Virus record (IMG/VR): IMGVR_UViG_2924862757_000006
Length of the DNA stretch: 64,000 nt
Source of the DNA: an uncultured virus (IMG/VR IMGVR_UViG_2924862757_000006)
Lineage: Duplodnaviria; Heunggongvirae; Uroviricota; Caudoviricetes
Reading direction: 5' to 3' (one strand)
Made by a program: the position numbers and the translations under genes. The stretch's first letter is position 1; each line of letters begins with the position of its first letter. Positions 526-14,346 of the stretch are shown piece after piece. The notes under the pieces were generated by a model. The model was given only the letters and a program-made list of their open reading frames with translations, had not been told where the DNA came from and searched no databases.

Positions 526-721
526 ATGTTCAAGAGAATAAAGCCTATTTCAAAAGCCTCCTTGGAAGGAATCGTTTATCAAATAAGATACCTTACAGGC
601 GAAAAAAAATGTTACTGATGAAGCACTTGTTTGGCATTTGCAAAGGATCTTATCCGAAAAAGGAATTCCTGTCGACTATATTTCTTCTCCCAAACCATGG
701 GAATGGAAGAAGAGAATATGA
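526..721 (+). pseudogene. Small ORF interrupted by a frameshift in an A8 run
   Basis: Promoter TATATTTG at 494-501, ATG at 526; removing one A from 602-609 restores a 64-aa ORF ending TGA at 719-721. Confidence 0.45.
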
Positions 722-759
722 TTACTTTTTTCCACATTTTCTTTGAACAGAACTGTATT

Positions 760-1278
760 TTAAGAAAGTAATGCAGCCTTGCTTAAATTATATATGTTTA
801 TAACTATATCCTTCATGGACCATATAGAATATAATAGAAGGTAAAGTAACAAGAATGATGCTGTATTATTAACATAATCGCTATATAAAAATTGGATGTT
901 TAGACTATGTATATATTTAAATATAATACTAAAAAAAATACCAATAAACATAATAATCATACATACTACAAATGAGGAATTTAGTCCAGAGAGTAGTTTT
1001 ATTCCTTCATCATCTTTTAAATCATTTAGTAGATTAGAGCAATATATAGATAATAAAATGGCATATGCAGCTAATACGAGTGAGACAATGGTAGGGATAA
1101 TTCCAATACATAAGTCTATGATTGTACTTAATGACTGATATGATGGGATATCACTAAAGTTTCCTATAATAATCATCGAAATAGAGAGAAGTATTGGTAC
1201 TAAAGAATCTTTTAAAATATCTTTACTAGTATATACTTTAAAAATACTTCTCCATCCAAATTCATCTTTAGCATTCAT
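760..1278 (-). CDS. Multi-pass membrane protein, partner of the upstream gene (candidate defence)
   Basis: About four hydrophobic segments; 8 nt downstream of 1287..2156; very AT-rich. Confidence 0.75.
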   Translation of the reverse strand: MNAKDEFGWRSIFKVYTSKDILKDSLVPILLSISMIIIGNFSDIPSYQSLSTIIDLCIGIIPTIVSLVLAAYAILLSIYCSNLLNDLKDDEGIKLLSGLNSSFVVCMIIMFIGIFFSIIFKYIHSLNIQFLYSDYVNNTASFLLLYLLLYSIWSMKDIVINIYNLSKAALLS

Positions 1279-1286
1279 GATTCTAG

Positions 1287-2156
1287 TTATTGATTATGCC
1301 CAAATATACTACATAATTCTGTGTATATCTTATTAAAATAATTTTTTTCTGTATCTTTAATTTCTATTCTCATAGGATAATCTTTTGTATCAATCTTGAT
1401 CGGTTTTCCATTTTCTTTTTCTTGTACTCTAGCTATCATTGTACCGTTACTACGTGACATGTTGACTATTGCTTCGATTATTCCATCTTCTTCTTTTTTA
1501 AGAGGTTCTTCGTCTGTTCCTTCCATTTTGAATTTAACATTTCTTGGTCTTGCATCTTTTATTTTTTTGTCAAACTTTGCAATAAATCCTTCTGTAAAAT
1601 CTTTATTTGAAAAAGTTATATCTGCATCAATTAAAAATATTTTATGTGCGTTTAAAACTCTTGTGATGATATCTCTACTTTTCTCTATATTAATATCAAC
1701 AGCTCCATTACTAGCTGTTTCTGCAAAACTATGGGTAAGATATTTCATCACTTGATTTATACCGATTTTAGAGCTTATGCTGACTATTAATCGGTGCACT
1801 TTAGGGATAAAATATAGCTCTACCTCTTTTAGGTTAGCAACAATATCAGGATTAATGTCAATCTTTACCTGTGTTTTCGTTTTTTTATCATAAAAAGCAT
1901 CTGGATTAAGAATATCATATGAAATTAATTTGATTAATAGCATTCTTGGGGTACCGTCATCCTCTAAATATTCGCTTTTAAGAAGCTGTTTTATACTGAT
2001 ATATCTATTACTATGTAATAATATGAGGGGATCTTTAGCATATAGTTGCTCAAATAATTTAACATATTTTTGTGGCGTTTGTTCGTATCTAGACTTGATG
2101 TTTATAACATACATTTTTCCGCCAATGATTCTTTTACTTTCTTTTGTCTGCTCCAT
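1287..2156 (-). CDS. DUF4747-like protein (candidate defence/lysogenic cargo)
   Basis: 289 aa; YFIPKVHRL segment and pairing with a TM gene resemble DUF4747 loci (by eye). Confidence 0.55.
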   Translation of the reverse strand: MEQTKESKRIIGGKMYVINIKSRYEQTPQKYVKLFEQLYAKDPLILLHSNRYISIKQLLKSEYLEDDGTPRMLLIKLISYDILNPDAFYDKKTKTQVKIDINPDIVANLKEVELYFIPKVHRLIVSISSKIGINQVMKYLTHSFAETASNGAVDINIEKSRDIITRVLNAHKIFLIDADITFSNKDFTEGFIAKFDKKIKDARPRNVKFKMEGTDEEPLKKEEDGIIEAIVNMSRSNGTMIARVQEKENGKPIKIDTKDYPMRIEIKDTEKNYFNKIYTELCSIFGHNQ

Positions 2157-2291
2157 AATATTGATTATTTATATGTGATTATTCAGTGTTTTTAGAGTTC
2201 TAAAGGTATGCTAAGAACTGCTGTTTTTGATAATGATGAGGTTTATTTTATTAATTTACAATGCAAATGAAACTAATGTGATTTTCTTCAT

Positions 2292-2531
2292 TTAGTATTT
2301 ATTTCTTTTTCTTTTCCAGTGACCGTTTACATAGGTTCCATCCTTTTTTGTATATCCATCTACCCACTTATCCGGTCTGTCAGTTTGGCTTGAATCAGAC
2401 ATTATGTTATAGTATAGTGCAATAAGAATCAAGCTTATAATAACTGTTGTTATTGGATAGTTAAACAGTACTATAAAGTAAGTGATTACAAATGCTATTT
2501 TGAGTACTATAGTATAATATGTCCTTTTCAT
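2292..2531 (-). CDS. Small membrane protein with VxGYxKKDGTYVxGH tail
   Basis: Two TM helices then a motif common in immunity-region proteins; directly downstream of the repressor. Confidence 0.7.
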   Translation of the reverse strand: MKRTYYTIVLKIAFVITYFIVLFNYPITTVIISLILIALYYNIMSDSSQTDRPDKWVDGYTKKDGTYVNGHWKRKRNKY

Positions 2532-2534
2532 AGC

Positions 2535-2915
2535 TTATCCGATATTTCTTTCATTCTTCAACATAGCCAGTTCACCCTTTAATTTTTGGTTTTCTTCCAA
2601 AAGCCGTTGGGTAAGCACTGTCTTCTCATTGATTTCATCCTGCAAATTGGCTATGGTATATACAATACTTTTCAATTTGTCCATTCCTGGTTCTGTTTCT
2701 TCTTTTTGAAGAAGCATGGAGCCTTTTCCTCTTAACAGCCATTCTGCGGATATTTCTTCATTTGAGAATAATATAGCATTGACTGTAGTCAAACTAAGTT
2801 CTCTCATTCCATTTAATTGGTTGGAGAATGTGTTGTCTTTTAATCCACATTTCATTGCAAATGCTCTTGTACTAAGTCCGTAGTATGCAATAATGTCTTT
2901 AATTCTTGTAATCAT
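2535..2915 (-). CDS. CI-like XRE/HTH prophage repressor with C-terminal coiled coil
   Basis: HTH (LSTRAFAMKCGLKDNTFSNQLNG) and ISAEWLLRGKGSM motif; divergent from the lytic operon; start moved to ATG 2915 because the upstream part is operator/promoter DNA. Confidence 0.85.
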   Translation of the reverse strand: MITRIKDIIAYYGLSTRAFAMKCGLKDNTFSNQLNGMRELSLTTVNAILFSNEEISAEWLLRGKGSMLLQKEETEPGMDKLKSIVYTIANLQDEINEKTVLTQRLLEENQKLKGELAMLKNERNIG

Positions 2916-2935
2916 ATGCAGTTTGTAAAAGTTAA

Positions 2936-2955
2936 ATTCTCTCAAATGAGAGAAT
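2936..2955. promoter_or_regulatory. Operator O1 (palindrome)
   Basis: ATTCTCTC-AAAT-GAGAGAAT perfect inverted repeat. Confidence 0.75.
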
Positions 2956-2970
2956 AATTTAAGTTTTAAA

Positions 2971-3002
2971 TTTGCATATTCTCTCAAACGAGAATATATT
3001 TG
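2971..3002 (+). promoter_or_regulatory. Rightward lytic promoter with operator O2 in the spacer
   Basis: TTTG (2971-74), 20 nt, TATATTTG (2995-3002); palindrome ATATTCTC-N6-GAGAATAT at 2976-2997 shares ATTCTCTCAAAYGAGA with O1. Confidence 0.8.
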
Positions 3003-3024
3003 CATCATCAATCAATCAATACTC

Positions 3025-3055
3025 CAAAAGTATAAAAAATGATTGATAAAACAAA
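3025..3055 (-). promoter_or_regulatory. Leftward (repressor) promoter
   Basis: Minus strand TTTG (3052-55), 19 nt, TACTTTTG (3025-32). Confidence 0.65.
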
Positions 3056-3072
3056 TGTGAAACTCAATAAAT

Positions 3073-3390
3073 GTGACAGACATGAAAAGATTTGATTTAT
3101 CCGAAATAATGAGAAATGCTCATAGAACCTATAAATATTCAGGCAAGAAGCAGGGAAAAACTTTTGGAGAGGTTCTGAAAGCTACTTGGAGACTTGCTAA
3201 ACTTCAAGAAAATTTCTCACAGGAAGCCATGAAAGCAAGAACGGATAAATTCTTATCAGAAAGAAACGAGGTAATGAGTAAAGCGGCTAAAGCTACAAGG
3301 CATGAGGGGTACAATAATCTTAATATACCCGCTTCCGCTTACTACAACCCAAATAGTACTCATTACGGTGCACATTACGTCGGAGATTAA
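3073..3390 (+). CDS. First early gene, basic hypothetical protein (Cro/antiterminator position)
   Basis: First ORF after the lytic promoter; LSEIMRNAH...LKATW motif. Confidence 0.7.
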   Translation: MTDMKRFDLSEIMRNAHRTYKYSGKKQGKTFGEVLKATWRLAKLQENFSQEAMKARTDKFLSERNEVMSKAAKATRHEGYNNLNIPASAYYNPNSTHYGAHYVGD

Positions 3391-3405
3391 TCAAATTATA
3401 CAACA

Positions 3406-3642
3406 ATGGATAAAAGAACCGAACTAGAAATACAGCGAGACAAATATGAAGCTGTGATTGAAGAACGAGACGCGTTGATCAACTCTTTGAGAGGTGAAAA
3501 TGAAAAACTCAAACGAGATTTAGAATCAGAACGTGGATTTTATAGAGAGAAAGTTTCCCAATGTGATGATTTGAAGAAATTTATTGAATCGCAAAGAAAC
3601 TTAATGGATATAGTTTTGAAGAACAACCAAAGTATTCTCTAA
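3406..3642 (+). CDS. Coiled-coil hypothetical protein
   Basis: Heptad-rich ORF in the early operon. Confidence 0.7.
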   Translation: MDKRTELEIQRDKYEAVIEERDALINSLRGENEKLKRDLESERGFYREKVSQCDDLKKFIESQRNLMDIVLKNNQSIL

Positions 3643-3736
3643 CCCTCACTAAAGTCAAACCAAACCGCCGGTTATCCGGTACCCAGTCCGGTCTTTGAGC
3701 CTGCCCTTGAAGGGAGACTGGGAACAACAGAGAAGA

Positions 3737-3747
3737 GTTCTTTGACA
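3737..3747 (+). promoter_or_regulatory. boxA-like antitermination element
   Basis: GTTCTTTGACA resembles rrn/lambda boxA (GCTCTTTAACA); preceded by hairpins including CCCTTGAAGGG. Confidence 0.5.
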
Positions 3748-3771
3748 TATTGGTAAAATGGTGTTTTGGAA

Positions 3772-3886
3772 GCCGACACGTGCCGAAAGGGATTACTGAC
3801 GTAGGCGGGCTTCTCAACGATATAATGCTGTGGTTAATGGTCAAGCCGTATCGTTGTAAAACTAAATCAGTTAGACGTTTGTCGGC
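3772..3886 (+). ncRNA. Multi-stem structured non-coding element
   Basis: Closing stem GCCGACA/TGTCGGC, internal stem CAACGATA/TATCGTTG, GAAA tetraloop; no credible ORF. Confidence 0.5.
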
Positions 3887-3916
3887 AAATCGAGGTATTT
3901 GCTTTATGTATATAAA

Positions 3917-4050
3917 GGTGATGTAGCTCAGGCAGGTTAGAGCGCTGTGTGTGGTGGATGGTTGAGAGTTCGAGTCTCTCAAGAAATACTCTTAGCTTAA
4001 CGGAAGAGCACCACAAGCAGAGGTCGGCGGTTCGAATCCGCCCATCGCTT
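3917..4050 (+). ncRNA. tRNA-like element with a second, permuted T-arm/D-arm unit replacing the anticodon loop
   Basis: Acceptor GGTGATG/CATCGCT, D-arm GCTC..GAGC, T-arm GGCGG-TTCGAAT-CCGCC; insert has GAGAG-TTCGAGT-CTCTC then TAGCTTAACGGAAGAGC. Confidence 0.8.
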
Positions 4051-4077
4051 CAATGTTTAATTAAAGAATATAGAGTT

Positions 4078-4338
4078 ATGACAAGGTTTTTCCAGTTTGT
4101 AATAGTTGGGATAATATTAGGAGCGGTGCTTATGTTACTCGCTTCTATTGTTTCTTCGTGTTACTTTTTTATTACAACATTTACGTTGAGTGATTTTGAA
4201 GAAAGAACAGCTTCATTTGTTCTCGGTGCGGTAAGTGCTCTATTTACATACGGAATGTTCCGGATATTAATGAATGCCTTACAAGTATTTTCAGATAAGT
4301 TGGATGCAATAAAGAAGAGATATGAAAGCAATAATTGA
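4078..4338 (+). CDS. Two-TM membrane protein
   Basis: ATG at 4078 after an A-rich leader; the upstream extension in the ORF track overlaps the tRNA-like RNA. Confidence 0.65.
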   Translation: MTRFFQFVIVGIILGAVLMLLASIVSSCYFFITTFTLSDFEERTASFVLGAVSALFTYGMFRILMNALQVFSDKLDAIKKRYESNN

Positions 4339-4441
4339 AATGTAGGATACACTGTTTTCTATGGTCCTCAATTTTAATAACACATCCTAGATTGATAAGG
4401 ATGCGTTTACCGTTTTCGGTAATCTCAATAAATTTGTTCAT
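4244..4441 (-). CDS. Small reverse-oriented hypothetical protein with its own promoter
   Basis: A-rich leader AAAAATAAGAAAATG; -7 TATTTTTG at 4467-4474 (minus); 3' end overlaps the opposite gene. Confidence 0.45.
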   Translation of the reverse strand: MNKFIEITENGKRILINLGCVIKIEDHRKQCILHFNYCFHISSLLHPTYLKILVRHSLISGTFRM

Positions 4442-4558
4442 TTTCTTATTTTTTAAGTTGGTTCTACAAAAATAAGAAAATCCCCCGTTCCTTTTTTATT
4501 AGCGAATAATCTTGGAACGGGGGAAATTTATTAATCAATTAATATTAAGCGTATTATT

Positions 4559-4726
4559 ATGAAGAATTACATAACTCTAATTGTGATGTTCATCATCGGT
4601 CTATTTGTTGGAAATAGAATATTTAATCATGTAAATGCGTGGATAGGTGTGGGTGTAATCTTGTTCACGATATTTTTTGTCACATATAAATTAATAAAAG
4701 CACTGAAAAATGAGAAGAAAGATTGA
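4559..4726 (+). CDS. Small two-TM protein coupled to the SPFH gene
   Basis: 55-aa hydrophobic ORF (MKNYITLIVMF...), below the ORF-track cutoff, overlapping the start of 4710. Confidence 0.6.
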   Translation: MKNYITLIVMFIIGLFVGNRIFNHVNAWIGVGVILFTIFFVTYKLIKALKNEKKD

Positions 4727-5519
4727 TTGTCTGTTTTTGGCATTGATTGCCATTATTTTATTTGCATCGTGTGAAAGAGTTGCTCCTAATTATGCCGGTG
4801 TGCTCATGGAGAATTACGGTAAACAGGGGAAAGATGATTTTAAGGTAGTTTCGGGCAAAGTATCTACATGGGAATGGGGTACGGAGCTATTTCAAGTTCC
4901 TTTGTTTGACCAACGTGGAGAATTCGCAGAGCCAGTAACATTAAAGGCTGCTGACAATACGGAGTTTACAGCACGTCCGACTTATTCCTATAAGGTGATG
5001 AAGAATAGGGCTATTGATATTGTATTTGACAACAAGCATATTGATAAAGCCGATACTCCATCAGGAAAGGATGGCTTTATGCAATCGTTGGAAGATAATA
5101 TCTTGGAACCTCGTATTTATGACCTTATTAAGGAGGAAAGCCGAAAACATAAGACTGATAGCCTGATGGCGGATGGTGGTTCGTTAGTTTTTGAAAAGAG
5201 ACTGGAGCAAATAGTAGATAAAGAGTTTGATAAACGAGGATTACAATTACTTACTTTTTCTGCACAGTTGGAGTTTTCAAGAGCTGTTCGTGATAAGATT
5301 GATAGTCGCAATGAAGTAAATACCAATATATCTGTTCTCGATCAGAAAATTGAAGAGCAGAAGAAACAAAATGAATTGGAACGATTGAAAACGGAACAGG
5401 CTCTTATTACATCGAAAGGGTTGACTAAAGAAATCCTGTATAAGCAGTTTATTGATAAATGGGATGGAAAAACACCGCTCTATGGTATTGCTCCTGATTT
5501 TCTGAAAATAACTCAATAA
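4710..5519 (+). CDS. SPFH/band 7 (prohibitin-like) lipoprotein
   Basis: Lipobox LFASC, SPFH-like core, coiled coil and IDKWDGKTP tail. Confidence 0.85.
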   Translation: MRRKIDCLFLALIAIILFASCERVAPNYAGVLMENYGKQGKDDFKVVSGKVSTWEWGTELFQVPLFDQRGEFAEPVTLKAADNTEFTARPTYSYKVMKNRAIDIVFDNKHIDKADTPSGKDGFMQSLEDNILEPRIYDLIKEESRKHKTDSLMADGGSLVFEKRLEQIVDKEFDKRGLQLLTFSAQLEFSRAVRDKIDSRNEVNTNISVLDQKIEEQKKQNELERLKTEQALITSKGLTKEILYKQFIDKWDGKTPLYGIAPDFLKITQ

Positions 5520-5746
5520 TGAAATTACCCAAGTTTATCCGTAAATACTTAATCCGAATGATTAAGATGCGAGTTGTTAAGAAAATACAACCCGATGGAG
5601 ATTACCAAAAAGCAGTCTCTTTTGTAATTAACGCACCTTTGAAAGAGTGGCGCATCCGATTGTGGTGTGTCACCCATTTCAAAGATGAATGTGGGTCAGG
5701 CGATGAGTCTGATTGGGAACGGTTATTGGACTATCTTACTCATTGA
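5519..5746 (+). CDS. Hypothetical protein
   Basis: Translationally coupled (TAATG). Confidence 0.6.
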   Translation: MKLPKFIRKYLIRMIKMRVVKKIQPDGDYQKAVSFVINAPLKEWRIRLWCVTHFKDECGSGDESDWERLLDYLTH

Positions 5747-5774
5747 GTAGCCACATTAATTAATCAACATATTT

Positions 5775-5972
5775 ATGATTCAAGTAACAATTAAAAACGA
5801 TAGGAATGAGAATTTGGAAGATGCCACATTCTCATTAAGTGTAGAGAATATGCCGATAAAATCAGCTAAAGTAGTAGCCGAAAAGCTTCCTGCTATGATA
5901 CAGAAAGCTTTTCGGGATTATTCAGATTGTAAAGTCGGGTTTAATCGAGATAAAAAGAGAGATAATGAATGA
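5775..5972 (+). CDS. Hypothetical protein
   Basis: ORF with A-rich leader in the early operon. Confidence 0.55.
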   Translation: MIQVTIKNDRNENLEDATFSLSVENMPIKSAKVVAEKLPAMIQKAFRDYSDCKVGFNRDKKRDNE

Positions 5973-6294
5973 ATTTTTCTATGAGTGATTTGAGCTTGTT
6001 GCAATCATCATTGTAATAATGATCTAAAAAACCTGAATCAAATCGAGGTCGAGGTTCTGACATCATTTTTTTGTAAAATGGCATTTCTTGGTCAAAAGCA
6101 TGTACAAGATTGATGAAATCATCTTGTACTTCTTTGAATTTGCATGAATATACATCATTTGTTCCTGGAGTACTATCTTTATAGCTTTTGGGCGCTATCT
6201 TGTTAGAATCAACCAATTCTTTAAATGTTGCTCGTATGCTTTCAAGGTTAGAAAGTATATCTTCTGCATGTTTTTTGTAAAATTCAGCTCTCAT
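5941..6294 (-). CDS. Reverse-oriented moron-like hypothetical protein
   Basis: ATG at 6294; own -7 TAACTTTG at 6321-6328 (minus). Confidence 0.65.
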   Translation of the reverse strand: MRAEFYKKHAEDILSNLESIRATFKELVDSNKIAPKSYKDSTPGTNDVYSCKFKEVQDDFINLVHAFDQEMPFYKKMMSEPRPRFDSGFLDHYYNDDCNKLKSLIEKFIHYLSFYLD

Positions 6295-6404
6295 ATTACT
6301 TAATTTTTGATTATACACCCCAAAGTTAAGTAAATCCTCCGAATAAAGCGTGATGCTGCCGATCGAATTGGTTCGGGGGAGCTTTTATTTTAAAATTAAT
6401 CAGT

Positions 6405-6599
6405 ATGGAAAAAGAAAAGAGTATTATGTGCATTCTCCGTGAAATGGAGATTGATGACAAAAAAGACTTTCCCATTTCCAAAAGGGCGTATCTTTTGAAT
6501 CTGACTTCTTACAGGTTAAAGGAGAAGGAGCCTGATAAAAAATGGGGTATTAAGTCTGATAGGAACAGCGGTATTGTCACGGTCACGCGAGTTGAGTAA
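6405..6599 (+). CDS. Small putative DNA-binding protein
   Basis: Basic 64-aa ORF ending VTVTRVE. Confidence 0.65.
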   Translation: MEKEKSIMCILREMEIDDKKDFPISKRAYLLNLTSYRLKEKEPDKKWGIKSDRNSGIVTVTRVE

Positions 6600-6612
6600 G
6601 TAATTAAAGCTT

Positions 6613-6876
6613 ATGGAAACTATTAGAGGTGAAATGGCTGAAATATTGCTAGATAATATTCTCCGTCTGTTTTCTACAGAAACGTTTGGAAAAGATAAGT
6701 CTGCGTATTATGTGGGTGGGGAAAAGAAATTGATGAATCTTATAGAAACGGGTAAGATTGAAAGTGATAAGCCCACTAATGTCCAAAACGGCAAGTGGCA
6801 TTGTAATGCTGCTCAAGTATTACTTCATTGCCGATGTGCGGGAAGGAAAGTTAAATCTAAAAAACGGAAGAAATGA
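6613..6876 (+). CDS. Putative excisionase-like winged-helix protein
   Basis: SAYYVGGEKKLMNLIETGKI...GKWHC resembles Xis/MerR-type wHTH. Confidence 0.5.
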   Translation: METIRGEMAEILLDNILRLFSTETFGKDKSAYYVGGEKKLMNLIETGKIESDKPTNVQNGKWHCNAAQVLLHCRCAGRKVKSKKRKK

Positions 6877-7064
6877 AAAAGATTAAAGTGATACAGTATG
6901 CCATGATGTTCATTGCCTTATGGACAACACTGTATCTTGTAGATAGCATTGAAGTTAGCAAGAAAGAATTTATTGCTGCTTTTGTATTGGTGACTGTCGT
7001 ATCAGTGAATTATATCTGTTTTCGATACTACGAAGATAGGAAACAAAATAAAGATAGCCTGTGA
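6873..7064 (+). CDS. Small two-TM protein
   Basis: Hydrophobic 63-aa ORF with ATGA overlap. Confidence 0.6.
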   Translation: MKKIKVIQYAMMFIALWTTLYLVDSIEVSKKEFIAAFVLVTVVSVNYICFRYYEDRKQNKDSL

Positions 7065-7126
7065 AGGTCTGCATTGCTTAATTTTAGTATTTGTCATGTT
7101 TATTTAGCCCGGTTCGCCGGGCATCT

Positions 7127-7197
7127 GCCGGGATAGCTCAGTTGGTTAGAGCGCATGTTTCTACATGAGGTCAGCGGTTCGAATCCGTTTCCCGGCT
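7127..7197 (+). ncRNA. tRNA-like element with a 4-nt anticodon loop
   Basis: Acceptor GCCGGGA/TCCCGGC, D-arm, T-arm AGCGG-TTCGAAT-CCGTT; anticodon arm CATGT-TTCT-ACATG. Confidence 0.85.
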
Positions 7198-7293
7198 CAA
7201 CTCAATCAGAGTTAAGTAACCCGTGAGGGGGAAAATTATGTTTGTATCAATAACAATTCAATCAATGTAGCCGGAAGCGTCTGGCTACGACCT

Positions 7294-7391
7294 GAAGGAA
7301 TGGCGGAATTGGTAGACGCAAGTATGCAGATAGATTGAAGAAAGTCATACATAGGTAATCTGTCATCCCGGTTCGAGTCCGGGTTCCTTCA
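7294..7391 (+). ncRNA. tRNA-Leu-like element with an oversized anticodon loop
   Basis: Acceptor GAAGGAA/TTCCTTC, Leu-type D-arm GGCGGAATTGGTAGACGC, T-arm CCCGG-TTCGAGT-CCGGG; GTATG/CATAC stem closes a 19-nt loop. Confidence 0.8.
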
Positions 7392-7618
7392 CAGAGAATT
7401 TTTCTTTTTATGTTTAACTAATGTTGCCAGCGAAAAGGACGCTGTAGGGTTAAAGCCCCTGTTATTTGAGTTTTAATTGTTCTATACTATTCCGGTGTGC
7501 TTTGAACGGCTATCCGGAAGCAAGAAGCTCGTGAGAGTGCTATTTAATAGTTAATGTCGTGTTTTATTTTGTGTTTGTGTTCTAGGTGAATGGTTCGTGA
7601 GAATAGTTCACTTAAAAC

Positions 7619-7685
7619 GGATGGCTGGTGTAATTGGCAGCATACGCAGATATGCGTGATGTGGGTTCGATCCCCACGCCATTCA
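7619..7685 (+). ncRNA. tRNA-like element with a 4-nt anticodon loop
   Basis: Acceptor GGATGGC/GCCATTC, T-arm GTGGG-TTCGATC-CCCAC; anticodon arm ACGCA-GATA-TGCGT. Confidence 0.8.
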
Positions 7686-7786
7686 CCCTTCTGATCCTAA
7701 TTAAATTATAGTAGTTCATGAGTTTTGTTTTGTGTTTGTGATTGGGGTGTATGGTCTGTGAAGATAGTGCACCTTTTTAATTAATC

Positions 7787-7869
7787 GGGCGGATATGTAT
7801 ATCGTTGGTTGAAACTGCGGTGATGTGCACCAATATTCCGTGAGACCGGTTCGACTCCGGTTCCGTCCA
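7787..7869 (+). ncRNA. tRNA-like element with degenerate D and anticodon arms
   Basis: Acceptor GGGCGGA/TCCGTCC, T-arm ACCGG-TTCGACT-CCGGT. Confidence 0.7.
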
Positions 7870-7963
7870 CTAGCATTTACATTATGTATAAATCAGGGAG
7901 CCGTACACCCTTCAAGCGTAGCCGTTCCATAAGGTACATTGGATTATTCATTTTCTTATTTTT

Positions 7964-7994
7964 CTGCCTGTACAATACCGTACAGGCAGTTTTT
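7964..7994 (+). terminator. Intrinsic terminator closing the RNA array
   Basis: CTGCCTGTAC-AATACC-GTACAGGCAG followed by TTTTT. Confidence 0.75.
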
Positions 7995-8003
7995 AACTAC
8001 CTG

Positions 8004-8095
8004 AAAATGGCGTTAAAATGGCGAAGTTTCTGTTTGCTAAACTTGTCAATAACGATTACCTTTACTGATGTAATAAACTAAAAGTCAAACCATTA
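8004..8095 (+). promoter_or_regulatory. Repeated phage middle-promoter/leader, copy 1
   Basis: AAAATGGCG x2, TTTG-N20-TACCTTTA, AAAGTCAAACCA leader; recurs at 15324, 20218, 23152. Confidence 0.8.
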
Positions 8096-8105
8096 ATTCA
8101 GAATT

Positions 8106-8702
8106 ATGAAAGAATTAGTAACCATTCAGCAAAAGCTGAAAGCCCCGAAAGGGCAATTTAATAAGTTCGGTAGTTACAAATACCGTAGTTGTGAGGATAT
8201 TCTTGAGTCAGTGAAACCTATTCTGACTGAAACAAAGTGTTCGTTAACTCTCAGTGATGAGATGGTGCCAGTAGGCAATAGAATTTATGTAAAAGCAACT
8301 GCCACTTTAACCAACGAAAAAGGGGAAAAAGAAATAGTGACTGCTTTTGCGAGAGAAGAGGAAACAAAGAAGGGAATGGATGGCAGCCAAATTACCGGAG
8401 CCTCATCTTCTTATGCAAGAAAGTATGCTCTTAACGGTCTATTTTGCATTGATGATACAAAAGACAGTGATGCAACTAACACTCACGATAAAGAAGACGC
8501 ACAACAGCCTGCAAAAACACCGGCTAGTATGAAGAATCCAGTTTATACTGGTGCCCAACTGAAAAAGGCTATTGCTGACATGCTTGCTGTCAAAAGCAGA
8601 GCTGAACTTGAAAAAGTATGGTATGCTAATCCGGCTATGCAAAATGATAAAGAGTTTGTAAATGCTTGTATGGAAATGGGCAAAATTTATCCTGCATCAT
8701 GA
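8106..8702 (+). CDS. ERF-family single-strand annealing protein
   Basis: LKAPKGQFNKFGSYKYRSCEDI and QITGASSSYARKYAL signatures. Confidence 0.9.
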   Translation: MKELVTIQQKLKAPKGQFNKFGSYKYRSCEDILESVKPILTETKCSLTLSDEMVPVGNRIYVKATATLTNEKGEKEIVTAFAREEETKKGMDGSQITGASSSYARKYALNGLFCIDDTKDSDATNTHDKEDAQQPAKTPASMKNPVYTGAQLKKAIADMLAVKSRAELEKVWYANPAMQNDKEFVNACMEMGKIYPAS

Positions 8703-9607
8703 TAGAGTTGGTTAAATCGAGTGTGGTTTTCTCAGAAGAGAACCACACATATTTTCTTGGTGAAAAGCAACTGAAAGGTATTACCGGAATGATAAGCCGG
8801 CAACTATTTCCCAATAAGTATAGGGATATTCCAGAATACATATTGAAAAAAGCTGCTGAAAAAGGCAGTCGTATTCATGGACAATGCCAGTTTGCTGATG
8901 TTACAGGATTACCACCCGAGAGTATTGAAGCTATTAATTATATCAGGGAAAGAGTAAATGCCGGATATAAGGCTTTTGCCAATGAGTACACTGTTTCAGA
9001 CAATGAATATTTTGCATCGAATATTGATTGTGTTTGGGAAAAGGACGAAAAAATCAGTCTTGGCGACATCAAGACTACTGCAAGCCTTGACCGTGAGTAT
9101 TTGAGTTGGCAGCTATCAATCTATGCCTATTTGTTTGAACTTCAAAATCCACTAATTAAAGTTGATAAACTGTTTGGCATTTGGTTACGTGGAAATAAGT
9201 CGGAATTAGTCGAGATTGAGCGTAAGCCGGATGCAGAGGTTAAGAGATTACTGGAGTGTGAGATTAAAGGTGAACAGTTCTTACCTAATGCTCCTGTTCC
9301 AGCCGATGAGAAGCAGCTTATTCCTATGCAATTAGTAAATACTATTATTGATATAGAGGAACAGGCGAGTTATATCGCTGAAGTGCAGAAAGGTTATAAG
9401 GAACAGCTTAAAAGTGCCATGCGTGAGAACGGTGTTAAATCATGGGACGCCGGTCGGTTGCGTGTTAGCTATACTCCCTCTTCAACGGGTAAGAGTTTTG
9501 ATGCAAAGAAGTTTCAGGAAGATCACCCGGAACTATATTCTCAATATTTAAAAACATCAACTAAAGCGGATAGTATTCGTGTAACTATAAGGGAGGAAGG
9601 AAAATGA
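8699..9607 (+). CDS. PD-(D/E)XK exonuclease-like protein
   Basis: ASNID...DIKT...QLSIY motifs; follows ERF. Confidence 0.8.
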   Translation: MIELVKSSVVFSEENHTYFLGEKQLKGITGMISRQLFPNKYRDIPEYILKKAAEKGSRIHGQCQFADVTGLPPESIEAINYIRERVNAGYKAFANEYTVSDNEYFASNIDCVWEKDEKISLGDIKTTASLDREYLSWQLSIYAYLFELQNPLIKVDKLFGIWLRGNKSELVEIERKPDAEVKRLLECEIKGEQFLPNAPVPADEKQLIPMQLVNTIIDIEEQASYIAEVQKGYKEQLKSAMRENGVKSWDAGRLRVSYTPSSTGKSFDAKKFQEDHPELYSQYLKTSTKADSIRVTIREEGK

Positions 9608-10077
9608 GTGTTAATAAAGTAATTCTTATAGGGCGTGCCGGTAAAGACCCGGATGTGAGAACATTGGACGGTGGAGCGAAAGTAGCTTCTTTATCTTTTG
9701 CTACAACAGATAAGGCGTACACCTTACAAAATGGAACCCAGGTGCCGGAACGTACAGAATGGCATAATCTTATTTTTTGGAATAAGACTGCTGAAATAGT
9801 TGAGAAGTACGTCCATAAAGGAGATAAGTTGTATATAGAAGGTAAGTTACGCACTCGTAACTATGACGATAGCAAAGGAGTTAAACGTTACATAACTGAA
9901 GTCTTTGTTGATAGTATCGAGATGCTTACACCGAAAGTTCAACAACAGGCTGCTCCTGTACCACCACCGTTACCAACGCAACAGCCTACACAGAGACAGC
10001 AACAACAAGTACAGCAGCCTGCATATCAGCAACAGCCATATCAACAGGTATCACCGCCTGATGATTTACCATTCTAA
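9604..10077 (+). CDS. ssb: Single-stranded DNA-binding protein
   Basis: SVNKVILIG start, TEWH, YIEGKLRTR, acidic DDLPF tail. Confidence 0.95.
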   Translation: MSVNKVILIGRAGKDPDVRTLDGGAKVASLSFATTDKAYTLQNGTQVPERTEWHNLIFWNKTAEIVEKYVHKGDKLYIEGKLRTRNYDDSKGVKRYITEVFVDSIEMLTPKVQQQAAPVPPPLPTQQPTQRQQQQVQQPAYQQQPYQQVSPPDDLPF

Positions 10078-10079
10078 AT

Positions 10080-10499
10080 ATGGCAGAAGCTATTCTAACA
10101 AAACAAAATGGGGTAGTCACAATGGATAAGTCGTTTGACTACCTCTGTTCCACGCTCAAGAATGGAACTTACACTGTAAGCATCAAGAGAAAGGTAGAAC
10201 CACGTACCCTGTCGCAGAACGCGCTCATGTGGCTGTGGTTTGCCTGTATTGAGAGGGAGACAGGCACGGATAAGTTGGATGTACATGATTACTATTGCCG
10301 GAAGTTTCTTCCACGGCAAATATGTATGAATGGAAATATTGTTTCGGTTGTTGGAAGTACTTCTAAATTGAATACGATCCAAATGAAAACTTTCATGGAT
10401 AAGGTTCAGGCTGATGCTGCCACCGAATTAGGAATCAATTTGCCATTGCCTGTTGACCAGTACTATAAAGATTTTATTAATGAATACCTGCATAGGTAA
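10080..10499 (+). CDS. NinB/Orf-like recombination protein
   Basis: RTLSQNALMW and STSKLNT motifs. Confidence 0.75.
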   Translation: MAEAILTKQNGVVTMDKSFDYLCSTLKNGTYTVSIKRKVEPRTLSQNALMWLWFACIERETGTDKLDVHDYYCRKFLPRQICMNGNIVSVVGSTSKLNTIQMKTFMDKVQADAATELGINLPLPVDQYYKDFINEYLHR

Positions 10500-10523
10500 G
10501 TATTAACTCAAAGTTTAATTAAA

Positions 10524-11132
10524 ATGGATTTGAATATTTCAAAAGCAAAATTGACCAAAAAGGGATGTCTTGAAGTGGTCTATGCAGACAAGGAAGGAAA
10601 CGATATTGTTTTCAAGGGGATTAATCCTGTTCATCCGGATTTGAAGGATTCGCTAAACAAGCTCATACCCTACATTGTCGATATTACAGAACAGAAAGAA
10701 TCCCAGTACATTAATTGGGAACGTCCAGAGTCATGTCTTGAAGATGAGTTCTTCAAAAAGTTCAATGTAACCGGCGTTAGCATTGGTGGTGATTCTTCTT
10801 TTGAGGTTTGTGTGTTGACAGGTAAGCGAACCCTTATGACGAGCAAAGTCCTTAATCTTTGTTCTCCTGGTATCGGTTTCGATCCGGACAATGAATCGTA
10901 TGTGCATTGTGAGGAGTTTCGTGATGCGGTTTATAATTTCTTGTATGAAGCAGAGCTTTATGTTACAGAGAATAAATGTTCGGAGATTCAAAGGGAATTT
11001 GAATTTAAAGATGGTGAGGATCCGTTTGACAAGGTTGATGAAGCTGCTGATGCAATGAATGAAGATGGTGAAGATAACGGGATATGTTCAACAGTTGAAC
11101 ATCATGAATTAGTATTAGAACCTGCTTCATGA
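10524..11132 (+). CDS. Hypothetical protein, acidic tail
   Basis: ORF in the recombination operon. Confidence 0.7.
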   Translation: MDLNISKAKLTKKGCLEVVYADKEGNDIVFKGINPVHPDLKDSLNKLIPYIVDITEQKESQYINWERPESCLEDEFFKKFNVTGVSIGGDSSFEVCVLTGKRTLMTSKVLNLCSPGIGFDPDNESYVHCEEFRDAVYNFLYEAELYVTENKCSEIQREFEFKDGEDPFDKVDEAADAMNEDGEDNGICSTVEHHELVLEPAS

Positions 11133-12865
11133 AACCAATTTATGTGACTAAGACGCCCAATCTGTACCGGATTCAGTTCGAGTATCACCCAAAGTTGGTC
11201 GAGGTCATAAAGATGATACCAAGTAAGCCACGCTATGACGGAACAGACCGGGCGTGGCTTGTTAGTATCAATGATACGCGTTATCCTATTGGACGTGATG
11301 CGAATTGGTATGTGAGAGCTTTTGCGCAATGGGCTGTTCAGATGCGTTATTGTTCTACTGTCAAGGAACGTGAGGTAACTGAAGATATTAATTATGATAT
11401 TCCTCCGATGAAACCTTTTGTCGGTGAACACTATATGTTACTTCAACCTTACGAGTATCAACTTGAAGGAGTACAGTATGCAATAGAGCACAAACGCTGT
11501 TTTTTCGGTGACCAGCCCGGATTAGGTAAAACATTGCAAGCCATATGTGCAGTTGTTAAAGCACATAAGGAAGCGCCCATTTATGGTGAGTCTTTTCCAG
11601 TACTTGTAATTTGCCCTGCTGCGTTGAAAGTAAACTGGCAGCGTGAGTTTAAGAAGTTCGCAGGTATGAATTCGATTATCCTTGATGACAGAAACCGACA
11701 GTCCTGGCAATCATTTTATGAGTGTAAAAAGTCTGATGGCAACCCACTTTGTGAGGTGTTCATTACTAATTATGAATCGCTTAATAAATTTTTTGTAAAA
11801 GCTGTAAATAAGGAATCCAAGCTTACAATGAAAAGTATTGCTTTCGATCAGCGTGTCTCTCTGTTTAGGTCTGTTATCATTGACGAATCTCATAAATGCA
11901 AATCAAGTAAAACTCAACAGAGCAAATATGTTGAAGGTATCTGCAAAGGTAAACGTTATATATTCGCATTGACCGGTACTCCTGTTGTTAACAATAATAC
12001 AGACTTGCTACAACAGCTAAAAATATTAGGTCGATTAGAGGACTTTGGAGGTTATAGCCGGTATGTTGAAAGATATTGTGATGGTCCCAAACAGGCATCC
12101 AACGTTAAAGAGCTGAATTGGCGACTATGGAATACTTGCTTCTTTCGTCGTGAGAAGTCAAAGGTGCTTACACAACTTCCGGACAAGACTCGTCAATACT
12201 TGACAGTTGATATCACTACCACCAAAGAGTATAAGGCTGCCGAGGCTGATATGGTAAAATACTTGAAGAAGTACAAGAACGCTTCGGATGAACAAGTGCA
12301 GAAATCAATGAATGGTGCCGTTATGGTGCAGATGCAGCTTTTAAAGCAGATATCTGCCAGAGGTAAAATCAAGGCTGTTTGTGAATTTGTCCATGATGTT
12401 ATCGACGGTGGTGAGAAGCTGATACTTTTCGGTTACTTGAAAGAAGTTGTAGCAGAACTGAAAAAGGAATTTCCTAAAGCTGTTACTGTAACGGGTTCCG
12501 ATAGTGTCAACCAAAAGCAATATGCCGTTGACTCTTTCCAAAATAATCCGGATTGTAAACTGATTATTCTGAATTTCAAATCGGGCGGTACCGGGCTTAC
12601 TTTGACTGCTGCCAGTCGTGTTGCTTTTATAGAGTTCCCTTGGACTTTCAGTGATTGCGAACAGGCAGAAGATAGAGCACACCGTAACGGTCAAAAGAAC
12701 AACGTTAACTGCTATTACTTCTTAGGTAAGGATACTATTGACAAGTATATGTATGATGTGATTCAAACAAAGAAGAACATTGCTAACGGTGTAACCGGAA
12801 CGGATGACCAAGTAGAAGAGAATATGGTGAATCTTGCAATGGACTTGTTTAGGGATAAATTATGA
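11129..12865 (+). CDS. SNF2-family helicase (HARP/SMARCAL1-like)
   Basis: DQPGLGKT, DESH, LTGTP, GTGLTLTAAS, QAEDRAHRNGQ motifs. Confidence 0.92.
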   Translation: MKPIYVTKTPNLYRIQFEYHPKLVEVIKMIPSKPRYDGTDRAWLVSINDTRYPIGRDANWYVRAFAQWAVQMRYCSTVKEREVTEDINYDIPPMKPFVGEHYMLLQPYEYQLEGVQYAIEHKRCFFGDQPGLGKTLQAICAVVKAHKEAPIYGESFPVLVICPAALKVNWQREFKKFAGMNSIILDDRNRQSWQSFYECKKSDGNPLCEVFITNYESLNKFFVKAVNKESKLTMKSIAFDQRVSLFRSVIIDESHKCKSSKTQQSKYVEGICKGKRYIFALTGTPVVNNNTDLLQQLKILGRLEDFGGYSRYVERYCDGPKQASNVKELNWRLWNTCFFRREKSKVLTQLPDKTRQYLTVDITTTKEYKAAEADMVKYLKKYKNASDEQVQKSMNGAVMVQMQLLKQISARGKIKAVCEFVHDVIDGGEKLILFGYLKEVVAELKKEFPKAVTVTGSDSVNQKQYAVDSFQNNPDCKLIILNFKSGGTGLTLTAASRVAFIEFPWTFSDCEQAEDRAHRNGQKNNVNCYYFLGKDTIDKYMYDVIQTKKNIANGVTGTDDQVEENMVNLAMDLFRDKL

Positions 12866-13050
12866 AGCCATTTAGATTAGTTATAATTGGGCAGAGAACT
12901 CATATTCAGGAATACAAGAAAGAAATGTTGTTCGGTCCTGAATGGGAAACCATAATATCCTTTGTCGGTTGCAGGAACAGGTGTAAACAAATCGTTGACC
13001 TTCTAAATGAATGTGCTACGATTTCAAAAAACAAGCAGAAAAATGACTGA
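12862..13050 (+). CDS. Hypothetical protein
   Basis: Overlap-coupled ORF. Confidence 0.55.
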   Translation: MKPFRLVIIGQRTHIQEYKKEMLFGPEWETIISFVGCRNRCKQIVDLLNECATISKNKQKND

Positions 13051-13492
13051 AGAAGATATTCGTAAATTGGAGGTGAAATATTCTGAAACCAAGATACAAC
13101 ACATTTGTGTAACTTGGTTCAGAGAAACGTTTCCCAATGTCGGCCCTCTACTCTTTGCTATACCAAACGGCGGCGTCAGGACAAAGAAAAGCGGTGCTAT
13201 GCGTAAATATGAAGGTGCCATCGCTGGTGTTGCTGACTTGATTCTGCTTTTTCCTCGCGGTGGTAAGAGCAGTCTTTGCATAGAGATGAAAACTCCACAT
13301 GTAAAAGGTAAACGTGCCGGAACGCAGTCTGATGAGCAAAAAGAATGGCAGGCATTAGTTGAGAAATATGGCAGTGTATATGTCGTTTGTCATGGGTTGA
13401 TTGAGTTCATTAATAGCGTTTGCTATTATCTGAAAGCTGACCCTCAACCTTATATAAACAATGTCTTACGGAATTATTATAAATTGATATGA
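13043..13492 (+). CDS. VRR-NUC family nuclease
   Basis: FAIPNGG, GVADL, IEMK, QSDEQKEW. Confidence 0.88.
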   Translation: MTEEDIRKLEVKYSETKIQHICVTWFRETFPNVGPLLFAIPNGGVRTKKSGAMRKYEGAIAGVADLILLFPRGGKSSLCIEMKTPHVKGKRAGTQSDEQKEWQALVEKYGSVYVVCHGLIEFINSVCYYLKADPQPYINNVLRNYYKLI

Positions 13493-14346
13493 CTTATATT
13501 GAACTTATCAATAGGTTTTGGGAACTTGACGAAAGCTGGCAATTTTCCTGCTGTGAAACGAGGCTTTATTTTTACTTGCTAAAAATTGCGAATCGTTTAG
13601 GCTGGGAGGATAACTGGACACGTAGTGATACAAAGGTGTCATCTGACGTGGGAGTGTCTGTAAAAGTATTCAAGTCCGCCCGAAATAGATTAGTTCAAGC
13701 AGGTCTTATTGAATGTAAACAAGGCAATGGAAGAGGCAATAAATCAACGTATTCTATAAAAGGTGTACAAAAAGGTATGCAAAATATACCACCTTTACGG
13801 CATCCTTTAGGGACACCTTTAGGGTACCCTTTAGGGACACCTTTTCAAGAAAGCTCCCCCATACCCCCTAAAGAAGAATATAAGACAGAGACAAAGAAAG
13901 AACCCCCTAAAGGGGGTAAGAAAGAAAGTAGCTCTGGCGAGCTTTTCCCACTCTCTAAACCGGAGAAACCTAAAAGAGTCGCAAAAGAATTTATAGCTCC
14001 TACGCTTGATGAGGTTATTCAACACTTCATCAAGCAAAATGCTCCGGAACGGTTAGATGACTGGCAAGAGCAAGCAGAAATATTCTTCAATCACTTTGAC
14101 TCGATAGGGTGGAAGAATGCCAATGGAGTGAAAATAGAGCGGTGGGATTCCAAAGCAAACCTTTGGATACTGGATCGTATTCGTGAAAATCGAAAAAATG
14201 AATTAGACCATGACGGAAGAGGAAAAGAATTTATCAAGCAAACTTCAAAATTTGATGGAGAAGGAAGCCGGCAAGCGCAAGCTGACGCTCCAACAGATAG
14301 AGAATCTGATACAAAGGCACAAAGAAAGTATTCAGAACGTTTCTGA
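13489..14346 (+). CDS. Phage replication initiator
   Basis: N-terminal wHTH (ARNRLVQAGLI), internal iterons, FIAPTLDEV...FFNHFDSIGW C-terminal domain. Confidence 0.8.
   Translation: MTYIELINRFWELDESWQFSCCETRLYFYLLKIANRLGWEDNWTRSDTKVSSDVGVSVKVFKSARNRLVQAGLIECKQGNGRGNKSTYSIKGVQKGMQNIPPLRHPLGTPLGYPLGTPFQESSPIPPKEEYKTETKKEPPKGGKKESSSGELFPLSKPEKPKRVAKEFIAPTLDEVIQHFIKQNAPERLDDWQEQAEIFFNHFDSIGWKNANGVKIERWDSKANLWILDRIRENRKNELDHDGRGKEFIKQTSKFDGEGSRQAQADAPTDRESDTKAQRKYSERF
13758..13917. repeat. Iteron cluster (probable origin of replication)
   Basis: 12-bp period CCTTTAGGG repeats at 13790-13844, with inverted copies upstream (AAAGGTG) and downstream (CCCCTAAAG). Confidence 0.75.

What the first reader, a model, noticed from the sequence alone, without database searches (positions are those of the whole stretch)
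7070..7994. Spacers between the tRNA-like units look like a cassette of antisense sRNAs
Seen: the spacers repeat a pattern of U/G-rich tract plus stable hairpin. Two share GTTTTnTTTTGTGTTTGTG (7561-7579, 7722-7740). Several tracts are reverse complements of A-rich start-codon contexts: TTTGTCATGTTTATTT (about 7090-7105), GTAGTTCATGAGTTTTGTTTTG (7711-7732) and TTCATTTTCTTATTTTT (7947-7963). The last is identical to 4437-4453, so it is complementary to the start region of the reverse ORF 4244..4441. Inference: tRNA-mimic processing releases several translation-blocking sRNAs aimed at host or cargo mRNAs, analogous to tRNA-spaced guide arrays. Low sequence complexity makes chance matches possible.
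Basis: inference. Interest (0 to 1): 0.75.

Follow-up and report, generated by a model that had tools for sequence, protein, structure and literature searches.

The report
Dead-tRNA-spaced phage antisense RNA array
A gut-bacterium prophage carries a string of tRNA look-alikes that cannot read codons, and the stretches between them look like small antisense RNAs, one of them matched to the message of the phage's own master repressor, which would be an undescribed RNA way of pushing the switch from dormancy to lysis.

Summary
Window 7057-7994 ends the early operon of a Bacteroides-type prophage: four anticodon-less tRNA-like units alternate with spacers of single-stranded tract plus hairpin. Tract 7233-7267 pairs with the 5' end of the phage's own cI-like repressor mRNA (best of 3423 prophage windows). 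Seven different sequence versions in 26 related loci pair with their own cI leader or start codon (19 of 21 pairs matched by at most 1 of 100 shuffles); G-U-compatible changes outnumber the reverse transitions 17 to 3. Tracts 7938-7963 and 7068-7088 match start regions of opposite-strand cargo genes. The shared U/G tracts are copies of the 3' half of the host's three Bacteroides-1 RNAs; relatives carry a FopS-like seed. Against: this window's tracts show no significant enrichment for 496 host starts, no host target was found, some related arrays lack an anti-cI spacer, and RNA data could not show processing. Best model: RNase P/Z cut out the dead tRNAs and release hairpin-capped sRNAs that silence lysogeny genes (about 55%). 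Not found in ten literature searches.

The parts
2535..2915 (-). cI-like repressor gene; predicted target of spacer 2
   Evidence: phrog_2328 transcriptional repressor, E 9e-8; equivalent start in relatives
3025..3055 (-). Predicted promoter of the repressor transcript (TTTG-N19-TAnnTTTG; consensus recalled)
   Evidence: One of 3 full matches in the window, where 1.6 are expected by chance, so not significant alone; position and spacing kept, with changed -7 letters, in relatives
2971..3002 (+). Predicted early (lytic) promoter, face to face with the repressor promoter; presumed source of the array transcript
   Evidence: inference
2994..3022 (-). 5' end of the predicted cI mRNA; site paired by tract 7233-7267
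   Evidence: -23.5 kcal/mol, best of 3423 windows; first 16 nt unpaired in the leader fold
3917..4052 (+). Separate tRNA-like unit with a T-arm/D-arm element nested in its anticodon arm
   Evidence: a true tRNA-Phe occupies this slot in four related loci
4244..4441 (-). Cargo gene 1 (65 aa, variable slot); its start region 4434-4453 is complementary to tract 7938-7963
   Evidence: no Pfam, PHROG or PADLOC family
5941..6294 (-). Cargo gene 2 (117 aa); its start region 6292-6308 is complementary to tract 7068-7088
   Evidence: (D4); no family found
7057..7126 (+). Spacer 1: GUGA-loop hairpin, tract 7068-7088 (anti cargo-2 start), tract 7084-7107 (anti-AUG core), hairpin 7107-7122
7127..7198 (+). 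tRNA-like unit 1, 4-nt loop in place of an anticodon loop
   Evidence: ARAGORN; Rfam tRNA 61 bits
7199..7293 (+). Spacer 2: two small hairpins, single-stranded tract 7233-7267 (anti-cI), hairpin 7267-7288
7294..7391 (+). tRNA-like unit 2, expanded middle arm
   Evidence: Rfam tRNA 36.5 bits
7393..7618 (+). Spacer 3: tracts 7397-7424 and 7461-7492 (no target found), conserved hairpin 7490-7520, GUGA hairpin, tract 7545-7582 plus hairpin 7586-7611 homologous to the 3' half of host Bacteroides-1 RNA
7619..7685 (+). tRNA-like unit 3, 4-nt loop in place of an anticodon loop
   Evidence: Rfam tRNA 39.1 bits
7687..7786 (+). Spacer 4: tract 7706-7744 plus GUGA hairpin 7746-7773 and U tail; second copy of the Bacteroides-1-like module
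   Evidence: (D1)
7787..7869 (+). tRNA-like unit 4 (degenerate D arm)
   Evidence: pattern search; not detected in the window by Rfam or default ARAGORN
7873..7963 (+). Spacer 5: conserved structured element 7895-7942 and tract 7938-7963 (anti cargo-1 start; FopS-like seed in this slot in some relatives)
7964..7994 (+). Intrinsic terminator closing the array
8004..8064 (+). Repeated promoter-like unit in front of the recombination and replication genes; outside the array
   Evidence: ERF and SSB genes follow

Best explanation
The array is a multiplex sRNA cassette at the 3' end of the prophage's early lytic transcript. The tRNA-like units keep the acceptor stem, D arm and T arm but have lost the anticodon, so host RNase P (5' side) and RNase Z/BN or exonucleases (3' side) should cut them out (inferred). 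Each released spacer ends in a stable hairpin that would protect it (anatomy shown, function inferred). Spacer 2 base-pairs with the 5' end, or in some relatives the start codon, of the cI repressor mRNA and most likely lowers repressor synthesis, reinforcing the lytic switch as an RNA counterpart of Cro or of an antirepressor (pairing conserved: shown by computation; sign of the effect: inferred). Because that leader is shared between immunity types, it could also act on co-resident relatives. Tracts 7068-7088 and 7938-7963 would silence opposite-strand cargo genes. Spacers 3 and 4 are borrowed host sRNA seeds that act on host mRNAs or host RNA-binding proteins (target unknown).
For: Tract 7233-7267: -23.5 kcal/mol on the cI 5' end, better than all 496 sampled host starts (best -15.8) and the other 78 ORF starts of the window; rank 1 of 3423 windows; binding gain -20.8 against -5.6 to -14.8 for the other four spacers. 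Seven sequence types in 26 loci with 18 distinct leaders: 19 of 21 own pairs matched by at most 1 of 100 shuffles, and pairing to the same-strand early leader is weaker in all 21. Unbiased reverse scan: the spacer ranks first of 534 windows in 8 of 20 chosen loci and second in 2. Differences from a perfect complement: 17 of 39 are C>T or A>G (G-U compatible), 3 are the reverse transitions. All 6 of 47 distinct rows whose cI start region carries GATTGATTTG also carry the start-codon-type spacer. Acceptor stems pair at 6-7 of 7 positions in 41 of 49 distinct units found without using the stem (shuffled partners average 3.6); only 10 of 77 middle arms fit a loose anticodon pattern. Hairpin 4-14 nt before most units. 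Five of 6 distinct cargo starts are matched by tract 7068-7088 or 7938-7963 so well that at most 12 of 496 host starts do as well. All 15 exact chromosomal copies of the shared tract in 5 genomes lie just 3' of a Bacteroides-1 RNA. A FopS-like spacer of a relative beats 299 of 300 shuffles on host starts, as host FopS beats 300 of 300; FopS represses translation at start codons (PMC11697453).
Against: No RNA evidence of processing or accumulation: raw reads came from host RNAs, and phage coverage came only from low-depth contigs without a valid silent control. In this window alone the cI site is only 0.8 kcal/mol better than the next site, and it was found after testing 9 tracts. Seven of 20 loci show no such spacer in their top three, and 2 of 21 pairs are not significant. 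For six of seven types, pairing to other phages' leaders is about as good as to their own, so strict co-variation is not shown; kin are not independent and no tree was built. Most types pair 80-100 nt upstream of the cI start codon, so repression is not obvious. The early transcript is already antisense in cis to both cargo genes. The window's U-rich tracts are not significantly tuned to host starts and no conserved host target emerged. Tract 7233-7267 contains a TAnnTTTG box. The hairpin plus U tail at 7746-7779 could terminate transcription.
Confidence: 0.55

Rival explanations
1. The pairing is real but the array works as one long, largely uncut RNA. The tRNA-like units are stabilising scaffolds or decoys with a job of their own (soaking up tRNA-directed nucleases or processing enzymes), and the tracts are displayed between or inside them.
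For: Relatives carry seed-like inserts inside the anticodon arm, which RNase P/Z cleavage would not free; inserts exceed 100 nt in several units; one RNA-library contig spans 7259-8109 unbroken (weak, since contigs show no ends).
Against: Intact acceptor stems, the T-loop consensus and C at position 74 in 73 of 77 units are what processing enzymes read (established knowledge, recalled; PMC2190699 passage on RNase P substrates). A hairpin sits just 5' of most units, as expected for protecting new 3' ends.
Confidence: 0.2
2. The tracts are protein-binding sites, not antisense seeds. The U/G tracts sponge RbpB or another RNA-binding protein, and the ATCAATCAA repeat is a DNA or RNA site for a phage regulator, or part of an internal promoter, that also occurs at the early promoter.
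For: RbpB binds single-stranded regions of FopS and many sRNAs (PMC11697453 section 7). The repeat also lies at the 5' end of the early transcript. A -7-like box lies inside tract 2 of this window. No host target was found.
Against: The -7 box has no -33 partner and is absent from the L290, L300, L303 and L050 spacer types. Substitutions favour G-U pairing with the opposite-strand RNA, 17 against 3. One spacer type matches the cI start codon region, which lies upstream of the early promoter. This rival may still hold for spacers 3 and 4.
Confidence: 0.15
3. A decaying tRNA cluster whose AT-rich spacers hold duplicated promoter and start-site fragments left by recombination; the matches are low-complexity coincidence or relics.
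For: True tRNA-Phe genes occupy the upstream slot in some relatives. Most tracts do not beat shuffles on host starts. The 17-mer is only at the 1% level.
Against: Acceptor stems stay paired through many different sequences while anticodons are lost. Modules are reshuffled yet keep the tract-hairpin-unit order. The anti-cI match persists in seven sequence types at the same slot. The whole array is 96-99% identical in 7 of 201 genomes of the genus.
Confidence: 0.1

Closest known systems
C4 antisense RNA of phages P1/P7 (and, recalled, P4 CI RNA)
   Same: Phage antisense RNA in the lysis-lysogeny circuit, matured by RNase P from a precursor that resembles pre-tRNA (PMC2190699 passage and reference).
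   Different: A single RNA whose own fold is the RNase P substrate; it represses an antirepressor and so favours lysogeny (recalled). Here separate dead tRNAs punctuate several RNAs and the predicted target is cI itself. No Rfam C4 match.
FopS / GibS sRNAs of Bacteroides (Rfam RF04319, RF04182)
   Same: U-rich single-stranded seed with an anti-AUG core before a terminator hairpin; represses translation at start codons (PMC11697453, PMC7366714 passages). Relatives' arrays carry an 18-nt match to the start of the host FopS copy.
   Different: FopS are stand-alone genes with their own promoters. The Rfam model does not hit this array or six related ones. The paper mentions one Caudovirales copy but no tRNA-like array in the passages read.
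Bacteroides-1 RNA (RF01694)
   Same: Tracts 7545-7582 and 7706-7744 with their GUGA-capped hairpins align to the sequence directly 3' of the Rfam-modelled part of the three host copies.
   Different: The modelled 5' domain is absent from the phage. No function or target was seen in the passages read (PMC2864571, table row only).
Lambdoid and P22 antisense RNAs OOP, aQ, sar; 24B_1; VpdS; PreS
   Same: Phage sRNAs that tune the lysis-lysogeny decision (PMC12197685 passages).
   Different: In the passages read none targets cI mRNA directly, and the review's main text has no occurrence of 'tRNA' or 'Bacteroid'. OOP, aQ and sar are cis-encoded. A cI-antisense lambda exists as a synthetic construct (PMC9680875 abstract).
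tRNA-spacer-derived RNAs and tRNA-punctuated precursors (E. coli 3'ETS-leuZ, MALAT1/mascRNA, synthetic tRNA-gRNA arrays)
   Same: tRNA-processing enzymes define the ends of a functional neighbouring RNA (recalled; PMC8457004 seen as a search listing only).
   Different: The natural cases have one by-product beside a real tRNA or a single mimic. The multiplex layout is, to my recall, known only as an engineered design.

Membership tests
tRNA genes | Cloverleaf with paired acceptor stem, D arm and T arm | tested here: met
   Rfam tRNA 61, 39 and 36.5 bits for three units; 41 of 49 distinct acceptor stems with 6-7 pairs
tRNA genes | 7-nt anticodon loop able to decode | tested here: not met
   4-nt loops in units 1 and 3, expanded arms in 2 and 4; 10 of 77 distinct middle arms fit a loose pattern, 4 of them true tRNA-Phe
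FopS (RF04319) | Match to the Rfam model at or above 56 bits | tested here: not met
   No hit at E<=5 in window 1-20000 or in six related arrays; a host copy scores 77.8
FopS (RF04319) | R1-type seed tuned to host start regions | tested here: inconclusive
   Met for a relative's spacer (1 of 300 shuffles as good), not for this window's four tracts (26-132 of 300)
FopS (RF04319) | RbpB binding and repression of susC translation | not testable with these tools
   needs CLIP, EMSA or a reporter
Bacteroides-1 RNA (RF01694) | 5' structured domain of the Rfam model | tested here: not met
   No hit in the window; only the downstream tract and hairpin are shared
C4 antisense RNA (RF01695) | Match to the Rfam model | tested here: not met
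   No hit at E<=5
C4 antisense RNA (RF01695) | Maturation by RNase P | not testable with these tools
   Reads laid held no usable phage ends
trans-acting antisense sRNA (functional class) | Accessible seed with conserved complementarity to a target mRNA 5' region | tested here: met
   Spacer 2 against cI; mean unpaired probability 0.69
trans-acting antisense sRNA (functional class) | Accumulates as a discrete RNA and changes target expression | tested here: inconclusive
   contigs of two RNA libraries cover most of 6625-8109 at depth 3.6-18; no ends, no strand, no valid silent control

The most novel reading that the evidence does not exclude
A natural multiplex guide array: Bacteroides temperate phages turned tRNA genes into anticodon-less cutting marks that release a programmable set of sRNAs, including an RNA antirepressor that works across immunity groups, silencers of their own cargo genes, and seeds taken from host sRNA families (Bacteroides-1 tail, FopS R1), some of them displayed inside the anticodon arm like a tRNA scaffold.
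Probability: 0.4. Interest if true: 0.92.

Novelty: new variant of a known kind. Interest (0 to 1): 0.8.

Why it matters
If true, common gut prophages control their lysis-lysogeny switch with an RNA antirepressor, a layer not seen in the lambda paradigm, and could trigger or outcompete co-resident relatives. It would give a function for degenerate tRNA clusters in phages that has nothing to do with decoding. It would show phages taking up host sRNA seeds, which bears on the open suggestion that phages spread FopS (PMC11697453). It also points to the unmodelled 3' tail as the likely seed of the orphan Bacteroides-1 RNA, and offers a native multiplex RNA expression design for Bacteroides. The central claim can be tested with one northern blot and one reporter pair.

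Tried and rejected
Host start enrichment: 496 starts called by me (first ATG, ORFs of 150 aa or more) in 40 x 20 kb of the nearest genome. By mean RNAduplex energy S1, S2 and S3b bound starts no better than coding windows; S3a, S3c, S4 and S5 were 0.3-1.0 kcal/mol better, host FopS 0.8. Shuffles did as well in 2-32 of 40 runs for the seven window tracts, 0 of 40 for FopS. The anti-AUG core does land on real starts more than on internal ATGs (150/64, 77/48, 79/62, 136/101 of 496; FopS 208/69), but core-fixed shuffles explain most of it. The stacking energies were entered from memory. Degenerate target patterns for tracts 7545-7582 and 7706-7744 in five genomes gave self copies and scattered hits, no conserved target; the listed hits were not annotated one by one. 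Strict one-to-one link of the 17-mer to the 4244-4441 gene: rejected, since most loci with the tract lack that gene and two with the gene start have another tract; the slot's start context is what is shared. Minus-strand peptides from the anti-AUG tracts: 24-35 aa ORFs exist, but the tracts differ in relatives; frame conservation was not tested formally. Tract 2 as a promoter: disfavoured. RNA reads: uninformative; the 16 reads of one raw run were host Bacteroides-1 RNA by their loose ends. Annotated phage records: 158 with only short matches, the 30 listed all to unit 1, none covering 80%. Genomes across the family: the promoter anchor was in 2 of 301. Ribozyme identity of 7895-7942: no Rfam hit; not pursued further. 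Cargo functions: no family; atlas scores under 0.9. Earlier findings: none for this sequence.

Full report
Setting. The window holds a temperate prophage: repressor-like gene at 2535-2915 (phrog_2328, E 9e-8), terminase and major head genes, ERF and SSB after the array. The Rfam hits to Bacteroides RNA families in the window and in the nearest genome place it in Bacteroides or a close genus; the records are unnamed. The window's own genome is not held, so comparisons use its nearest held genome (99% identical over the array), other genomes of the genus and viral contigs. The array is 96-99% identical over its length in 7 of 201 genomes searched, with diverged or partial versions in several more. 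It lies between a 63-aa gene and a terminator at 7964-7994. The only complete matches to the recalled Bacteroides promoter consensus in the early region are 2971-3002 (+) and 3055-3025 (-), face to face; 3 matches in the window is not above chance on its own, so transcription from 2971 through the array is an inference.

Observation. The shared tract extends to a 51-nt repeat with its hairpin. The 17-nt identity is reached by 0.6-1.5% of 1000 shuffles. The region folds better than all 20 shuffles (z -4.5).

The tRNA-like units. Three score as tRNA in Rfam; the fourth was found by pattern. Across phage loci I located units by D-arm and T-arm patterns alone: 41 of 49 distinct acceptor-stem pairs have 6-7 base pairs against 3.6 for shuffled partners, 73 of 77 have C at position 74, and only 10 of 77 middle arms fit a loose anticodon pattern, four being true tRNA-Phe genes in the upstream slot. 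Middle arms range from a 4-nt loop to inserts of over 100 nt. Selection thus keeps the parts read by RNase P and 3'-processing enzymes (recalled; a passage of PMC2190699 says RNase P contacts the T arm and acceptor stem) and drops decoding. A passage of PMC7366714 lists RNase P and Z homologues in B. thetaiotaomicron. The 40 nt before 41 distinct units fold at median -12.7 kcal/mol against -4.2 before 25 ordinary tRNA genes, so most spacers would end in a hairpin after a cut at unit position +1. The exceptions are mainly first or upstream units.

Host-like seeds. The tract at 7545-7581 matches three chromosomal sites of the nearest genome. A 19-nt core gave 22 matches with up to 2 mismatches in 5 genomes: 15 exact chromosomal copies, three per genome, 6 in prophage arrays and 1 stray. 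All 15 lie just 3' of a Bacteroides-1 RNA, and the following GUGA-capped hairpin also aligns. So spacers 3 and 4 are the 3' half of a host RNA. Relatives carry a FopS-like seed in spacers or inside an anticodon arm. FopS block translation at susC start codons and one Caudovirales copy is mentioned (PMC11697453, sections 7 and 8 whole plus passages; its Supplementary Fig. 5a was not seen and might show a related locus).

On 496 starts from 800 kb of the nearest genome, host FopS and a relative's FopS-like spacer were matched by 0 and 1 of 300 core-fixed shuffles, which validates the test. This window's tracts were matched by 26, 61, 79 and 132 of 300, and the host Bacteroides-1 tail by 22; one search agrees. 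Pattern searches found no conserved host target. The sample covers about 15% of one genome with crude start calls, so a few specific targets could be missed.

Targets inside the phage. Testing 9 tracts against 79 ORF start regions of the window, tract 7233-7267 paired at -23.5 kcal/mol with the region upstream of cI, beyond every host start. It is the best of 3423 windows on both strands, though only 0.8 ahead of the next. The site, 2994-3022, begins a few bases after the predicted repressor promoter, so it is the mRNA's 5' end, and it is largely unpaired in the leader fold. In 26 of 30 loci examined (4 lacked one of the two regions) there are 7 spacer sequences and 18 leaders; 19 of 21 own pairs were matched by at most 1 of 100 shuffles, the misses being 8 and 13 of 100. 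Six types pair at the 5' end; one pairs over the start codon (own mean -18.0, others -14.0). For the six, other phages' leaders bind about as well, because that leader is shared across immunity types. In a larger set (111 loci, 20 dropped for lacking the anchor or length, 47 distinct rows) a seed-prefiltered scan put the best site just after a tRNA-like unit in 39 rows. An unfiltered scan on 20 loci that I chose as type representatives ranked the spacer first of 534 windows in 8 and second in 2; 3 were start-codon types that the probe did not cover; 7 had no such spacer in the top three. Identity-based alignment of 13 versions to the perfect complement gave 39 differences, 17 G-U compatible and 3 reverse transitions; the versions are related, C>T is also favoured by mutation, and the other 19 are mostly at ends or in poorly aligned parts. 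The -7-like box in this window's tract has no -33 partner and is missing in four types.

Cargo genes. The gene at 4244-4441 sits in a slot whose occupant varies while the start context is kept; the commoner 148-aa occupant is also complementary to 7938-7963. Of 6 distinct opposite-strand cargo proteins, 5 have starts for which at most 12 of 496 host starts bind tract 7068-7088 or 7938-7963 as well; the sixth belongs to another array type. In the early transcript the cis-antisense copy at 4440-4453 is tied in a hairpin (I11), whereas the array copy is free. Co-occurrence is loose, genome-wide these sites are not the top hits (tied third for 7938-7963, outside the top five for 7068-7088), and the cargo functions are unknown.

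Expression. Fourteen RNA runs of six studies hold part of the stretch. Four runs were laid: two raw runs gave 16 and 33 reads, largely host tRNA and host Bacteroides-1 RNA by their loose ends; two contig sets cover most of 6625-8109 at low depth, with flanks that differ between strains, so there is no silent control. Processing is neither shown nor excluded.

Mechanism. Shown: anatomy, loss of anticodons with intact stems, homology to host sRNA halves, conserved complementarity to cI. Inferred: transcription from the early promoter, cutting by RNase P and Z, stability of the pieces, repression of cI (favoured by the start-codon type in the same slot and by the place in the lytic operon; 5'-end pairing could act through RNase III or refolding, or could even stabilise the mRNA). 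I put the cI pairing at about 0.7 and the whole model at 0.55.

Prior art. Ten full-text searches returned nothing describing such an array; the library lacks most subscription papers. Also consulted: PMC10994844, PMC2864571, PMC10194989, PMC12197685 (passages), PMC9680875 (abstract and outline), PMC13750123 (none of six terms present). No supplements were opened; Additional File 1 of PMC2864571 may say more on Bacteroides-1. It works like C4 or FopS but fails membership of both. Verdict: a real, selected RNA cassette; new variant of phage antisense control; interest 0.8.

Noticed in passing
window 3917-4052 (+): tRNA-like unit with a second T-arm/D-arm element (weak YrlA-like Rfam hit, 21.7 bits) nested in its anticodon arm; the same slot holds a true tRNA-Phe(GAA) in L300, L303, L337 and L397.
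   Followed up: partly
window 287-402 (-): BTnc049-like sRNA (50 bits, below the 81.9 cut-off) at the end of the repressor operon; also in L368 (66.7), L120 and L051. Candidate lysogeny-expressed sRNA.
   Followed up: partly
L125:3766-3882, L124:3734-3828, L024:819-930: U-rich, FopS-like seeds inserted inside the anticodon arm of tRNA-like units, like a natural tRNA scaffold.
   Followed up: partly
window 7895-7942 and 7490-7520 (+): Two conserved structured motifs without an Rfam match; the second has an inner stem that varies in sequence between phages. The first was not tested as a ribozyme.
   Followed up: partly
window 8004, 15192, 15324, 23152 (+): A promoter-like unit with a tandem 9-nt repeat upstream recurs four times in the prophage, probably sites of a phage activator.
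   Followed up: no
window 2971-3055: Face-to-face predicted promoters whose transcripts would overlap by about 15 nt; the overlap sequence is kept across many immunity types while operators change.
   Followed up: partly
L118:991-1977: In the host chromosome two tandem Bacteroides-1 RNAs lie about 600 nt from a FopS gene; the Rfam model of Bacteroides-1 stops before the conserved tract and terminator.
   Followed up: partly
window 760-2156 (-) and 28075-29088 (-): A DUF4747 gene with a small partner downstream of cI, and a gene with weak AbiC/AbiP similarity, E 2e-5: possible defence cargo.
   Followed up: no
L407, PR+2050 to PR+2400: A related two-unit array lacks an anti-cI spacer but has a tract in the same sense as the cI leader.
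   Followed up: no
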